Shown here piece by piece: positions 52,794 to 54,853 of a stretch of DNA of 64,000 nt. The stretch lies in sequence record OR062946.1, one strand, 5' to 3'. A model generated the notes under the pieces. That model was not told the origin of the DNA and did not search any database. It saw nothing but the letters and a program-made list of their open reading frames with translations. Position 1 is the first letter of the stretch. The number at the start of each line of letters is the position of its first letter. The position numbers and the translations under genes were made by a program. This stretch comes from Escherichia phage 310Ecol104PP.

Positions 52794-53267
52794 TTATTTG
52801 ATTTGTTTAGCAGACCAAATGCGGTCTTTAATAATCTTTTGGATGTCTTCAACATACTCTAGGTCATGAGCATGTGGATTATCTTTGAAACTATAGGCAC
52901 GGGCTAACTTTTGGCCTTCGGTTTTGATTACTAAAAGCTCTTTAAGGATAGCTTCATATTTAGCGATAATTCCTTTAACAATATTTTTTTCTTGTGCAGC
53001 TTTATGATCTGCTTTAGGAGCAGGTTTACCCGAAGCCTTTGCAAAAGCAGCGCCAGTAGCAACTAAACTTTTCCAGGCCATACTAACTGCATTTCCCGTA
53101 AATCCTTCTGCTTTCATGTCGCGAGCAAACTGGAATCGTGATTCGTCAGAAGCATCTTTATAGGAATATTTACCCGCTGCAATGGCTGCTTTTGCGACAG
53201 CTTGAATTTCGGTGCTAGATGCTTCATTTAACACCGCTTCATTTAAAAATTGAGCATATGATTTCAT
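52794..53267 (-). CDS. CTS-like N-terminus protein (candidate internal protein), 157 aa
   Basis: N-term MKSYAQFLNEA (CTS-like); Ala/Lys-rich; own late promoter and flanking terminators. Confidence 0.6.
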   Translation of the reverse strand: MKSYAQFLNEAVLNEASSTEIQAVAKAAIAAGKYSYKDASDESRFQFARDMKAEGFTGNAVSMAWKSLVATGAAFAKASGKPAPKADHKAAQEKNIVKGIIAKYEAILKELLVIKTEGQKLARAYSFKDNPHAHDLEYVEDIQKIIKDRIWSAKQIK

Positions 53268-53306
53268 CTTATTTCCTGTTTTAATTCGTGATTTAATATA
53301 CTACTA

Positions 53307-53314
53307 TATTTATA
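53307..53314 (-). promoter_or_regulatory. T4 late promoter
   Basis: minus-strand TATAAATA about 40 nt upstream of ATG 53267. Confidence 0.55.
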
Positions 53315-53343
53315 CCAAAAAGCCCCAACCTTTCGGTCGGGGC
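53315..53343 (-). terminator. intrinsic terminator
   Basis: GCCCCGACC-GAAA-GGTTGGGGC then UUUUUGG; near-duplicate of 52758..52785 element. Confidence 0.65.
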
Positions 53344-53347
53344 TAAG

Positions 53348-53655
53348 CCTTGCGGCAACCTTGTCGGGGTTCCACCTGCTAAGGCAAGTGTTTGTACGAA
53401 ACGCCGGGATTCGAACCCGGTTATTAAGTAGTTGACGCTACTTAATATTTTTAAAAGGCCATATCTCGACCATATCCGAACGTTCCGTCAAAAACGCTAC
53501 TCGGCTTACGGCAAAGATATTTCCTCGAATCGATAATTCGGTGCGCCGTTTCTGCTGTGATGTAAGAGGGCATCAACAAATCATAAAGATTTATTAACAC
53601 GATTCCTTACCCAGGGAACATCAGTCCGACGACTTACCGGTAGCGACCCGGTTTC
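53348..53655 (-). ncRNA. structured non-coding region; candidate small stable RNAs (T4 species 1/2 analogues) including a tRNA-like element at about 53393..53487
   Basis: no ORF; T-arm CCGGG-TTCGAAT-CCCGG, 7-bp acceptor-like pairing CGGAACG/CGTTTCG, 8-bp stem with 6-nt loop instead of anticodon arm. Confidence 0.4.
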
Positions 53656-54006
53656 TTAATATTCTTTTAAAGCATCAATCTGTTCACGGCGTAAACGCCA
53701 TAAATCAATTGCTTCATACGCAGATTCAGCATTTCGAATTAGCCGACATTTATATAAAGACTTATGATTTTGATATTGTGTAGATAACGGAATTTTATCT
53801 AAAAGGTCTTTACGTTCAAAATATTCGTAACCATCTAAACCAAATGAACGATTTTTAAGAAATTGCCAATGTCCAAATTCGTTTTCAACATAAACATAAT
53901 CTGCATGCTGATAAAGTAAATTAATTACACGTTCAGAAATAACAGTATCATTATGATTAAAATAGAATGTTAAATCATGAACTACTAAATAAACATTACC
54001 TTTCAT
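53656..54006 (-). CDS. hypothetical protein, about 116 aa
   Basis: likely start ATG 54006 (MKGNVYLVVHDL) after GAGGA; track ORF extends into tRNA-Arg. Confidence 0.5.
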   Translation of the reverse strand: MKGNVYLVVHDLTFYFNHNDTVISERVINLLYQHADYVYVENEFGHWQFLKNRSFGLDGYEYFERKDLLDKIPLSTQYQNHKSLYKCRLIRNAESAYEAIDLWRLRREQIDALKEY

Positions 54007-54024: not shown

Positions 54025-54101
<77 letters not shown>

Positions 54102-54105
54102 TATT

Positions 54106-54180
54106 TGGCGGACGTGATAGGATTCGAACCTATAACCAATCGCTTAACAGGCGATCGCTCTGCCATTGAGCTACACATCC
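54106..54180 (-). tRNA. tRNA-Asn (anticodon GUU)
   Basis: manual fold: acceptor GGATGTG/CACGTCC, D-arm GCTC-AATGGCA-GAGC, anticodon loop CTGTTAA, T-loop TTCGAAT, CCA encoded. Confidence 0.8.
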
Positions 54181-54184
54181 AAAT

Positions 54185-54271
54185 TGGTGGGGAGTGATGG
54201 AGTCGAACCACCCGAGTCGCAATGACAATGGATTTACAGTCCACACCGCTACCTCTACGGGATAACTCCCC
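54185..54271 (-). tRNA. tRNA-Tyr-like (anticodon GUA), long variable arm
   Basis: perfect acceptor GGGGAGT/ACTCCCC, anticodon loop CTGTAAA, variable stem GTC/GAC, T-loop TTCGACT, CCA; D-arm irregular. Confidence 0.6.
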
Positions 54272-54280
54272 AAATTAATT

Positions 54281-54355
54281 TGGTGGCCCTGGGTGGAATT
54301 GAACCACCATCTGGCGATTATGAGTCGCTTGCTTGAACCTTCCAGCTACAGGGCC
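54281..54355 (-). tRNA. tRNA with CAU anticodon (Ile-lysidine or Met; T4 tRNA-Ile position)
   Basis: acceptor GGCCCTG/CAGGGCC, anticodon loop CTCATAA, T-loop TTCAATT, CCA; 1 nt after tRNA-Thr. Confidence 0.85.
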
Positions 54356-54356
54356 T

Positions 54357-54432
54357 TGGTGCTGATTGACGGAATCGAACCGCCGACCTTCTCATTACAA
54401 GTGAGTTGCTCTACCTACTGAGCTAAATCAGC
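54357..54432 (-). tRNA. tRNA-Thr (anticodon UGU)
   Basis: acceptor GCTGATT/AATCAGC, anticodon loop CTTGTAA, T-loop TTCGATT, CCA encoded. Confidence 0.9.
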
Positions 54433-54437
54433 AAAAC

Positions 54438-54527
54438 TGGCGGAGGCGATAGGATTTGAACCTATGAGTCGCCGGAGCGACTGCCGGTTTTCAAGACCGG
54501 TGCATTAAACCACTCTGCCACGCCTCC
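54438..54527 (-). tRNA. tRNA-Ser (anticodon UGA), long variable arm
   Basis: acceptor GGAGGCG/CGCCTCC, anticodon stem CCGGT/ACCGG loop CTTGAAA, T-loop TTCAAAT, CCA. Confidence 0.9.
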
Positions 54528-54529
54528 AG

Positions 54530-54603
54530 TCTCCATACAAGGATTTGAACCTTGGACCTCCTGATCCCAAATCAGGCGCTCTACCAAACTGAGCTACACG
54601 GAG
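54530..54603 (-). tRNA. tRNA-Pro (anticodon UGG), CCA not encoded
   Basis: anticodon loop TTTGGGA, T-loop TTCAAAT; 3' end abuts tRNA-Ser (dimeric precursor as in T4). Confidence 0.88.
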
Positions 54604-54613
54604 TAAATTAAAT

Positions 54614-54687
<74 letters not shown>

Positions 54688-54692
54688 AAATT

Positions 54693-54779
54693 TGGTGCGA
54701 GAAGTGGGACTCGAACCCACAAGGAAATCATTCCGCAGCATTTTAAGTGCTGTGCCTTTACCAATTTGACCATTCTCGC
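54693..54779 (-). tRNA. tRNA-Leu (anticodon UAA), long variable arm
   Basis: acceptor GCGAGAA/TTCTCGC, anticodon loop CTTAAAA, T-loop TTCGAGT, CCA. Confidence 0.9.
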
Positions 54780-54780
54780 G

Positions 54781-54853
54781 CTGGGAATAAAGGACTCGAA
54801 CCTTTGCATCCTGGAATCAAAATCCAGTGCCTTACCAACTTGGCTAATTCCCA
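54781..54853 (-). tRNA. tRNA-Gln (anticodon UUG), CCA not encoded
   Basis: 5' UGGGAAU, anticodon loop TTTTGAT, T-loop TTCGAGT; 3' end abuts tRNA-Leu (dimeric precursor). Confidence 0.9.

What the first reader, a model, noticed from the sequence alone, without database searches (positions are those of the whole stretch)
53348..53655. ORF-free structured RNA region with a non-canonical tRNA-like element
About 300 nt between a terminator and the next ORF has no coding capacity but strong structure. It includes a T-arm (CCGGG-TTCGAAT-CCCGG), a 7-bp acceptor-like pairing, and an 8-bp stem with 6-nt loop where the anticodon arm would be. This fits the small stable RNAs (species 1 and 2) that accompany the T4 tRNA cluster and have no known function. 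The element could be an RNase P substrate or a tRNA mimic.
Basis: partly seen in the sequence, partly recalled or inferred. Interest (0 to 1): 0.45.

Follow-up and report, generated by a model that had tools for sequence, protein, structure and literature searches.

The report
T4 species 1 and 2 RNAs
This stretch holds a T4-like phage's copies of two small stable RNAs known since the 1970s (rnaD and the tRNA-like rnaC); their function is still unknown, and comparing relatives shows that rnaC's two hairpin loops pair with each other.

Summary
The window comes from a T4-like phage (Tequatrovirus). Window 53348-53655 on the minus strand aligns base for base with the T4 genes annotated rnaD (species 2 RNA) and rnaC (species 1 RNA). 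They lie at the 3' end of the tRNA operon, just upstream of an intrinsic terminator. By transfer of the annotation, rnaD is about 53659-53540, rnaC is 53533-53395, the 3' trailer is 53394-53345 and the terminator is 53344-53321.

There is no Rfam family, and ARAGORN calls no tRNA there. Published work up to 2025 still says the function is unknown.

New here:
- A structure for rnaC supported by covariation across 27 distinct homologues from several phage genera. It has a 7-bp acceptor-like stem with two conserved U.U mismatches, a canonical T-arm, a long hairpin in the D-arm position and a 10-bp hairpin in the anticodon position.
- The two hexaloops of those hairpins (UUGACG and CGUCAA) are exact complements and covary in two lineages, which indicates a kissing-loop lock.
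- rnaD has invariant ends around a hairpin that occurs in three unrelated sequence types.

Verdict: already known, of modest interest. The structure makes an old open question easier to test.

The parts
53540..53659 (-). rnaD (species 2 RNA), about 120 nt
   Evidence: Aligns to T4 misc_RNA rnaD (91.8% identity) and to the RB68 ncRNA rnaD annotation. Ends are transferred from those annotations, not measured.
53636..53652 (-). rnaD 5' hairpin: ACCGG-GUCGCUA-CCGGU, 5 bp with an invariant 7-nt loop
   Evidence: MFE fold. The closing pair covaries: A-U, G-C and G.U in 21 sequences.
53561..53612 (-). rnaD hypervariable hairpin, which occurs in three unrelated sequence types among relatives
   Evidence: Alignments A3 and A6. 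The stem beneath it has 4 covarying pairs.
53534..53539 (-). 6-nt spacer GAAUUA between rnaD and rnaC
   Evidence: Transfer of the T4 and RB68 annotations.
53395..53533 (-). rnaC (species 1 RNA), 139 nt, tRNA-like
   Evidence: 2 differences from T4 rnaC in 139 nt. The covariance model built here scores 167.5 bits and finds a single copy in the window.
53526..53532 (-). rnaC acceptor-like stem, 5' strand CGAUUCG
   Evidence: Pairs with 53397-53403. Pair 3 covaries (A-U in 13 sequences, G-C in 14). Positions 4 and 5 are U.U in 26 of 27 sequences and are Watson-Crick only in Yersinia phage TG1.
53456..53525 (-). rnaC long hairpin in the D-arm position, about 26 bp with bulges
   Evidence: MFE fold. 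17 of its 26 pairs change on both sides (helices 2 and 3).
53486..53491 (-). Apical hexaloop UUGACG of the long hairpin (kissing partner 1)
   Evidence: Exact complement of 53432-53437. It is UUGAUG in TG1 and UUGGCG in the Klebsiella phages, each with a matching change in the partner loop.
53422..53447 (-). rnaC hairpin in the anticodon position, 10 bp plus a hexaloop
   Evidence: 9 of 10 pairs change on both sides.
53432..53437 (-). Hexaloop CGUCAA (kissing partner 2)
   Evidence: All 6 loop-loop pairs are standard pairs in all 27 sequences, and 2 of them covary (helix 4).
53404..53420 (-). rnaC T-arm: CCGGG-UUCGAAU-CCCGG
   Evidence: 100% paired, with 2 covarying pairs. The T-loop has the tRNA consensus sequence.
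53397..53403 (-). rnaC acceptor-like stem, 3' strand CGUUUCG
53392..53396 (-). Conserved tail U-A-C-A-A after the acceptor stem. It is U-N-C-A-A in all relatives and U-CCA-A in the Klebsiella phages.
   Evidence: Alignment A5: T141, C143, A144 and A145 are invariant.
53345..53391 (-). Conserved 3' trailer between rnaC and the terminator
   Evidence: Conserved in T4, RB69 and T2. It is also kept in Dhakavirus phages, which lack rnaC.
53321..53344 (-). Intrinsic terminator of the tRNA operon: 10-bp stem, GAAA loop, U tract
   Evidence: Terminator scan. G50 annotates a terminator at the homologous place.
53656..54006 (-). Context: 116-aa ORF between tRNA-Arg and rnaD. It is absent from T4, and its stop codon overlaps the transferred rnaD 5' end.
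   Evidence: ORF list. Matches phrog_3355, unknown function, with no Pfam match. The same ORF is present in T2, RB68 and RB69. The T2L 'trna.2 ORF' primers in PMC2330249 match it closely.
54025..54853 (-). Context: cluster of 10 tRNA genes upstream in the same orientation
   Evidence: ARAGORN and Rfam.

Best explanation
The interval encodes the window phage's orthologues of T4 rnaD (species 2 RNA) and rnaC (species 1 RNA).

Biogenesis (established for T4, inferred here by orthology). Both are the last products of the polycistronic tRNA-operon transcript, which ends at the hairpin terminator at 53344-53321. They are cut out by the host's RNA-processing enzymes and accumulate as stable RNAs.

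rnaC (shown here by covariation). It is a structural tRNA mimic. It has an acceptor-like stem stacked on a canonical T-arm, which is the minihelix read by RNase P and other tRNA enzymes. The D and anticodon arms are replaced by a long hairpin and a 10-bp hairpin. The hexaloops of these two hairpins pair with each other as a 6-bp kissing complex, so no anticodon-like loop is free and the RNA cannot decode.

rnaD (shown here). It has a small invariant 5' hairpin and a long hairpin closed by the 3' end. The core sequences are invariant, and the central hairpin is swapped between three unrelated sequence types.

Function (inference, about 25% likely). rnaC offers a tRNA acceptor/T-arm surface to a tRNA-binding host or phage factor, acting as a decoy, sponge or cofactor. 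rnaD's variable hairpin tunes a host-specific interaction.

The confidence given (0.85) is for identity, transcription unit and the rnaC fold, not for the functional inference.
For: Identity:
- Base-for-base alignment to the T4 misc_RNA features rnaD and rnaC and to the RB68 ncRNA annotations in the same gene order.
- About 800 phage records carry the region, nearly all T4-like phages of enterobacteria.

Operon end:
- Terminator scan.
- PMC2330249 states that the T4 primary transcript of about 1.75 kb runs through the tRNA cluster and terminates after the species I gene.

Expression:
- PMC9697503 validated T4 RNAC by northern blot and classed RNAC and RNAD as late RNAs.

rnaC structure:
- 90.3% of cells paired against 37-45% in slid controls, and 31 pairs with changes on both sides.
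- Kissing helix 100% paired, with variants UUGACG/CGUCAA, UUGAUG/CAUCAA and UUGGCG/CGCCAA.

tRNA-like handling:
- In Karamvirus and related phages, rnaC sits between tRNA-Trp and tRNA-Gly with spacers of about 5 nt.
- Klebsiella phage copies end in U-CCA.

Constraint on rnaD:
- 44 nt at the 5' side and about 20 nt at the 3' side are nearly invariant, while the middle is replaced.

Host-specific role:
- PMC12685909 found a single convergent SNP inside rnaD in all three lines of a T4-like phage evolved on the semi-permissive host ECOR34.
Against: - No function has been shown for either RNA (PMC3014915, PMC9697503, PMC12685909).
- PMC2330249 describes the tRNA region as not essential for development of T4 and T2L.
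- Dhakavirus phages lack rnaC altogether, and Karamvirus, Kanagawavirus and Tegunavirus phages lack rnaD, so neither RNA is universally needed.
- The mature ends in this phage are transferred from annotation, not measured.
- The 3' tail is UACAA, not CCA.
- RNase P cleavage of rnaC was not tested here.
- rnaD's basal stems never vary, so covariation neither supports nor refutes them.
- The kissing loop rests on two independent compensatory events only.
Confidence: 0.85

Rival explanations
1. The two RNAs have no function in trans. They are stable by-products, or a cis-acting 3' module, of the tRNA operon. Structured spacers provide processing sites (RNase P at the rnaC 5' end) and block 3' exonucleases, which protects the upstream tRNAs.
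For: - They lie at the 3' end of the operon, next to the terminator.
- No function has been found in 50 years (PMC3014915).
- Either RNA can be absent from whole genera.
- The region is dispensable (PMC2330249).
Against: - rnaC keeps a specific tertiary contact through compensatory changes, along with a canonical T-loop.
- rnaC also occurs in the middle of tRNA clusters, and on its own after a hairpin with no adjacent tRNA in Kosakonia phage 305 and L021, so a position at the operon's 3' end is not required.
- rnaD's core is invariant at the sequence level, which goes beyond what a stem barrier needs.
- A convergent adaptive SNP fell in rnaD (PMC12685909).
Confidence: 0.3
2. They are trans-acting, base-pairing regulatory small RNAs that target host or phage mRNAs.
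For: - Invariant stretches predicted to be unpaired exist: rnaD AAGAAAC and the loop GUCGCUA, and the rnaC linker UUUUAAAAAUA.
- Papers loosely call them 'small regulatory RNAs' (PMC9697503).
Against: - No match to any complete E. coli genome at E <= 0.01. Short seed pairings would not be seen by this search.
- The mature RNAs lack the terminator hairpin plus U-tail typical of Hfq-dependent sRNAs, because the terminator lies in the trailer that is removed.
- rnaC's conserved loops are occupied by pairing with each other.
Confidence: 0.12
3. rnaC is a decaying tRNA pseudogene, a tRNA gene disrupted by an insertion, and is under no selection.
For: - The acceptor stem and T-arm resemble a tRNA.
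- ARAGORN calls the SonariX homologue a 95-nt 'tRNA-Met'.
- The best Rfam match is tRNA-Sec at 17.6 bits, below the threshold of 47.
Against: - Every helix, including the non-tRNA parts, is kept by compensatory changes across at least six genera.
- rnaC is 98-100% identical among phages whose flanking genes differ.
- No sequence shows a 7-nt anticodon loop or a D-arm.
Confidence: 0.04
4. The region encodes small proteins, as many GenBank records annotate it ('hypothetical protein').
For: - CDS features overlap the region in many records, for example sutha CDS0256 and CDS0257, Clarke_MM3 CDS0282 and CDS0283, and Kosakonia 305 gp153.
- Mechanical ORFs of 34 and 49 aa exist in the window.
Against: - The frames and extents of the open stretches differ between close relatives.
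- Indels are not multiples of three.
- The substitution pattern is compensatory for RNA helices.
- The T4 products were characterised as RNAs (T4 record; northern blot in PMC9697503).
Confidence: 0.02

Closest known systems
Bacteriophage T4 rnaC (species 1 RNA) and rnaD (species 2 RNA)
   Same: - Orthologous sequence: rnaC has 2 differences in 139 nt, and rnaD is about 92% identical.
- Same order (rnaD, 6-nt spacer, rnaC, trailer, terminator).
- Same strand and same position downstream of tRNA-Arg.
   Different: - In T4, rnaD starts 2 nt after the CCA of tRNA-Arg. Here, as in T2, RB68 and RB69, a 116-aa ORF of unknown function lies between them.
- T4 encodes ...CACCA at the rnaD 3' end, and the window encodes ...CACCG.
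tRNA-like domain of tmRNA (SsrA)
   Same: An acceptor stem plus T-arm without a functional anticodon arm, in an RNA processed like a tRNA.
   Different: - No encoded CCA and no G3.U70 alanine identity pair (A3-U70 here).
- No tag reading frame.
- ARAGORN finds no tmRNA in the window, and Rfam gives no hit.
- The body is a kissing two-hairpin bundle, not pseudoknots around an mRNA-like region.
Bacterial and phage Y-RNA-like YrlA RNAs and other tRNA mimics (mascRNA, plant-virus tRNA-like structures)
   Same: Non-coding RNAs that imitate part of the tRNA fold and are handled by tRNA enzymes (from established knowledge).
   Different: - No Rfam match to any of these families, even at E <= 10.
- rnaC has no D-loop/T-loop elbow that I could identify.
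- Its loop-loop contact is between the hairpins at the D position and the anticodon position.
RNase P-processed phage antisense RNA C4 of P1/P7
   Same: A phage small RNA whose 5' end is made by host RNase P (cited in PMC11143913).
   Different: C4 acts by antisense pairing and is not embedded in a tRNA operon. There is no sequence or structural similarity.

Membership tests
T4 rnaC (species 1 RNA) | Sequence orthology to the annotated T4 gene | tested here: met
   Window 53395-53533 (minus strand) differs from T4 70908-71046 at 2 of 139 positions. The RB68 rnaC annotation maps to the same coordinates.
T4 rnaC (species 1 RNA) | Position at the 3' end of the tRNA operon, after rnaD and before the terminator | tested here: met
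T4 rnaC (species 1 RNA) | Accumulates as a discrete stable RNA of about 140 nt in infected cells | not testable with these tools
   Shown for T4 by northern blot (PMC9697503). No expression data exist for this phage.
T4 rnaD (species 2 RNA) | Sequence orthology to the annotated T4 gene and adjacency to rnaC | tested here: met
   91.8% identity to T4 rnaD (hit H114). The conserved 5' and 3' cores are identical, and the central hairpin is of the T4/RB69 type.
tRNA (Rfam RF00005) | Cloverleaf that scores at or above the gathering threshold, or an ARAGORN call | tested here: not met
   No RF00005 hit in 53300-53670, even at E <= 10. The best clan hit is tRNA-Sec at 17.6 bits against a threshold of 47. 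ARAGORN finds none there.
tRNA (Rfam RF00005) | 7-bp acceptor stem and a 5-bp T-arm with a UUCRANY loop | tested here: met
   T-arm 100% paired, loop UUCGAAU. The acceptor stem has 5 Watson-Crick pairs plus 2 U.U.
tRNA (Rfam RF00005) | D-arm and a 7-nt anticodon loop | tested here: not met
   A 70-nt hairpin replaces the D-arm. The hairpin in the anticodon position has a 6-nt loop that pairs with the other hairpin's loop.
tRNA (Rfam RF00005) | 3' CCA end | tested here: inconclusive
   The gene encodes U-ACA-A. Klebsiella phage homologues encode U-CCA-A. Whether CCA is added after transcription cannot be told from DNA.
tmRNA | tRNA-like domain plus a tag-peptide reading frame | tested here: not met
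   ARAGORN reports no tmRNA. No Rfam tmRNA hit.
Any Rfam 15 family | Covariance-model match at the gathering score | tested here: not met
   The only gathering-score matches in the window are the 10 tRNAs. Nothing credible appears in the interval at E <= 10.

The most novel reading that the evidence does not exclude
rnaC is a dedicated molecular mimic of the acceptor/T-arm half of tRNA. Its body is locked by a kissing-loop contact that I did not find described in the literature I could search. It would titrate or recruit a tRNA-directed factor, for example a host tRNA-targeting defence nuclease or toxin, or a tRNA-processing or modifying enzyme. rnaD's cassette-like hypervariable hairpin would be a host-specificity determinant caught in an arms race. 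That would explain the convergent rnaD SNP seen on host ECOR34.
Probability: 0.15. Interest if true: 0.7.

Novelty: already known. Interest (0 to 1): 0.3.

Why it matters
[quoted passage not shown] What remains open is their function, which reviews and papers from 2010 to 2025 still call unknown.

The comparative structure derived here gives concrete handles for that question:
- a kissing-loop lock that can be broken and then restored by paired mutations;
- two conserved U.U mismatches in the acceptor stem;
- a conserved UNCAA tail;
- a swap-prone hairpin in rnaD.

It also shows two gaps in current resources. Many GenBank records mis-annotate these RNAs as hypothetical proteins or as an odd tRNA. 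No Rfam family exists for either RNA.

Tried and rejected
- My first IMG/VR pattern scan had an off-by-one error in the T-arm and found nothing. The corrected pattern was checked on the window and the loci before it was reused.
- Pattern scans of IMG/VR, JGI metagenomes and GTDB genomes found rnaC only on contigs resembling T4-like phages of enterobacteria. The marine-metagenome hits, and all three hits in the bacterial genome collection (two MAGs and a Paenibacillus contig), lack the rest of the architecture and are chance matches.
- A blastn search of 5,426 complete E. coli genomes found no host look-alike.
- Literature searches for a described function found none. The classic papers were not held: the Miller 2003 review by PMC id and the 1976 NAR RNase III paper by DOI.
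- I considered that the conserved unpaired GG next to the junction (GGCC, about 53456-53461) might dock on the T-loop as G18-G19 do in tRNA. Phage CIP9 has lost both the GG and the T-loop consensus. I dropped the idea because the GG can form G.A or G.U pairs inside the helix in most sequences, and there is only one supporting lineage.
- I looked for tRNA-like features in rnaD (an acceptor/CCA register) and found no consistent register.
- Complementarity between the rnaD 5' hairpin loop and rnaC GUAGCG is only 5-6 bp and is not conserved outside T4-type phages, so I treat it as chance.
- A moderate covariance-model hit in L020 (27.6 bits) turned out to be tRNA-Gln.

Full report
**What the window is.** ARAGORN and Rfam find ten tRNA genes on the minus strand at 54025-54853. 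Megablast of 53250-53720 hits 761 phage records, nearly all T4-like phages of Escherichia, Shigella, Yersinia and Salmonella, at up to 99.2% identity. The window is therefore a Tequatrovirus genome segment. The finding lies at the 3' end of its tRNA operon.

**Checking the observation.** Every described feature is on the minus strand.
- The T-arm CCGGG-UUCGAAU-CCCGG is at 53404-53420.
- The hairpin with hexaloop CGUCAA is at 53422-53447.
- The acceptor-like pairing CGAUUCG/CGUUUCG is at 53526-53532 and 53397-53403.
- A terminator lies at 53344-53321, and the next ORF ends at 53656.
- The minus strand of 53300-53670 folds to -132.7 kcal/mol (z = -6.1), against -105.3 (z = -3.0) for the plus strand.

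Two details differ from the finding. The anticodon-position stem is 10 bp rather than 8. The 7-bp acceptor stem contains two U.U mismatches.

**Identity.** The T4 reference record annotates two misc_RNA features directly downstream of tRNA-Arg: rnaD ('species 2 RNA', 71053-71171) and rnaC ('species 1 RNA', 70908-71046). The window aligns to them base for base, with 2 differences in the 139 nt of rnaC and about 92% identity in rnaD. Phage RB68 has the same gene order as the window and annotates ncRNA rnaC and rnaD at the homologous coordinates.

Transfer of these annotations gives:
- rnaD at about 53659-53540;
- a 6-nt spacer;
- rnaC at 53533-53395;
- a conserved trailer at 53394-53345;
- the terminator.

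Unlike T4, the window has a 116-aa ORF (phrog_3355, unknown function, no Pfam match) between tRNA-Arg and rnaD. This is the T2L-type layout described in PMC2330249. That paper also states that the T4 primary transcript of about 1.75 kb runs through the whole tRNA cluster and terminates after the species I gene.

**What is known about function.**
- PMC3014915 (2010) says the biological roles of RNAC and RNAD are unknown.
- PMC9697503 (2022) validated T4 RNAC by northern blot, classed both as late RNAs, and again calls their functions unknown.
- PMC12685909 (2025) found that the only mutation shared by three lines of a T4-like phage evolved on the semi-permissive host ECOR34 was a SNP inside rnaD. 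It still calls the function unknown.

I found no paper assigning a function. Rfam 15 has no family for either RNA.

**Structure of rnaC from comparison.** I collected homologues from the phage collection, IMG/VR and metagenomes. The genera named in the records include Tequatrovirus, Mosigvirus, Gaprivervirus, Karamvirus, Kanagawavirus, Tegunavirus and Marfavirus (the Klebsiella phages). This gave 27 distinct sequences, aligned in A5.

Counting a structure derived from the window's MFE fold:
- 90.3% of cells are paired, against 37-45% when partners are slid by 1-3 columns.
- 31 of 54 pairs change on both sides.
- No shuffle out of 500 reaches the observed values.
- The T-arm is 100% paired with two covarying pairs.
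- The anticodon-position hairpin has 9 of 10 covarying pairs.
- The long hairpin has 17 covarying pairs.
- In the acceptor stem, pair 3 alternates between A-U and G-C. Positions 4 and 5 are U.U in 26 of 27 sequences and are Watson-Crick only in Yersinia phage TG1.

**The kissing loop.** The apical hexaloop of the long hairpin (UUGACG, 53491-53486) is the exact reverse complement of the hexaloop of the anticodon-position hairpin (CGUCAA, 53437-53432).
- In TG1 the two loops are UUGAUG and CAUCAA.
- In the Klebsiella phages they are UUGGCG and CGCCAA.

So all six loop-loop pairs are standard pairs in all 27 sequences. Two independent compensatory changes fall at two different positions (helix 4). 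A chance match of two hexaloops has probability about 1 in 4096.

Helix lengths fit the model (my inference). About 20 bp of the lower long hairpin run one way. About 22 bp run back, made of its top stem, the 6-bp kiss and the 10-bp hairpin. This would give a compact two-helix bundle attached to the acceptor/T-arm minihelix.

**rnaC is treated like a tRNA.** In Karamvirus and related phages, rnaC sits inside the tRNA cluster between tRNA-Trp and tRNA-Gly, with spacers of about 5 nt. ARAGORN even calls the SonariX copy a 95-nt 'tRNA-Met', and the record annotates it so.

After the acceptor stem all copies keep U-N-C-A-A. This is UACAA in the window and UCCAA, a real discriminator plus CCA, in the Klebsiella phages.

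A covariance model built from A5 finds one copy in the window (167.5 bits). It scores real tRNAs at only 18-28 bits. rnaC is therefore a tRNA mimic, not a tRNA.

**Structure of rnaD.** Twenty-one distinct sequences, chosen from the 28 extracted, were aligned. They show a nearly invariant 44-nt 5' part, which includes the hairpin ACCGG-GUCGCUA-CCGGU, and a 3' part of about 20 nt that is invariant except for one position (UCACAGCNGAAACGGCGCAC). The hairpin between them occurs in three unrelated sequence types, and the types do not follow phage genus:
- T4, the window and RB69 share one type.
- T2, HY01 and the Dhakavirus IME341 share another.
- IME08, SP18 and phage 212 share the third.

Covariation supports the 5' hairpin (one pair) and the stem under the variable hairpin (four pairs). 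The basal stems never vary, so they are neither supported nor refuted. I found no tRNA-like register in rnaD.

**Distribution.**
- rnaD is restricted to Tequatrovirus, Mosigvirus, Dhakavirus and Gaprivervirus phages.
- Dhakavirus phages have rnaD but lack rnaC, which is missing exactly between the spacer and the trailer.
- Karamvirus, Kanagawavirus, Tegunavirus and Marfavirus phages have rnaC without rnaD.
- No E. coli genome contains a look-alike.
- Pattern scans of metagenomes and bacterial genomes found the architecture only on T4-like phage contigs.

**Mechanism.** The identity and the transcription unit are secure. Processing by host tRNA enzymes is inferred from orthology to T4, from the minihelix and from the position among tRNAs.

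For function I favour, at about 25%, a model in which rnaC presents a tRNA acceptor/T-arm surface to a tRNA-binding factor, as a decoy, sponge or cofactor. Its body would be locked so that it cannot enter decoding. In the same model rnaD's variable hairpin tunes a host-specific interaction, which would fit the ECOR34 SNP.

The main rival, at about 30%, is that both RNAs are stable by-products or a cis-acting processing and protection module. Three observations count against it:
- the preserved tertiary contact in rnaC;
- rnaC occurring away from operon ends;
- the sequence-level invariance of rnaD's core.

A base-pairing sRNA role (about 12%), a tRNA pseudogene (about 4%) and protein coding (about 2%) are less likely. 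The reasons are given under each rival explanation.

**Verdict.** The finding is correct and well interpreted, but it is a rediscovery of annotated, long-known genes. The interest lies in the unsolved function and in the testable structure obtained here.

Noticed in passing
window 53656-54006 (-): A 116-aa ORF (phrog_3355, unknown function, no Pfam match) lies between tRNA-Arg and rnaD. T4 has no such ORF, and there rnaD starts 2 nt after the tRNA-Arg CCA. The ORF's stop codon overlaps the transferred rnaD 5' end. In this phage the rnaD 5' end must therefore be cut out of an mRNA 3' end rather than out of a tRNA trailer.
   Followed up: partly
window 53541-53548 and 53397-53403 (-): rnaD's invariant 3' segment GAAACG is a perfect complement of the rnaC acceptor 3' strand CGUUUC, whereas rnaC's own 5' strand pairs with it through two U.U mismatches. 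The MFE fold of the whole region uses this alternative pairing. It could be a precursor conformation or a coincidence.
   Followed up: partly
L011 (sutha), L034 (Clarke_MM3), L007 (Kosakonia 305), L005 (SonariX): Many GenBank records annotate 'hypothetical protein' CDSs across rnaC or rnaD. The SonariX record, and ARAGORN, call its rnaC homologue a 95-nt tRNA-Met. These look like systematic mis-annotations caused by the lack of an Rfam family.
   Followed up: partly
L003, L028, L030, L031 (Dhakavirus phages IME08, dhabil, C6, IME341): These phages keep rnaD, the trailer and the terminator but lack rnaC. The junction reads ...GCGCACCGA|ACACUUGCC..., which looks like a clean deletion of rnaC.
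   Followed up: partly
L004 700-846 (Enterobacter phage CIP9): This rnaC copy has a non-canonical T-loop (UGCAUGC instead of UUCGAAU) and CG instead of the otherwise universal GG before the CC of the junction helix. All helices and the kissing loops are intact.
   Followed up: no
window 53321-53375 (-): The trailer contains AACCCCGACAAGG, a near repeat of the 5' half of the terminator stem (AGCCCCGACCGAAAGG). The 3' half of the terminator could therefore pair with either copy. A possible alternative structure was not analysed.
   Followed up: no
window 54025-54853 (-): The tRNA set is Gln, Leu, Gly, Pro, Ser, Thr, Met(CAU), Tyr, Asn, Arg, with no segB homing endonuclease gene. This is the T2L-type arrangement rather than the T4 one. 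The close relative G50 has an extra tRNA-His.
   Followed up: partly
window 52794-53267 (-): A 157-aa ORF (phrog_2280, unknown function) lies directly downstream of the terminator. In T4 this position holds only non-coding sequence before e.8.
   Followed up: no
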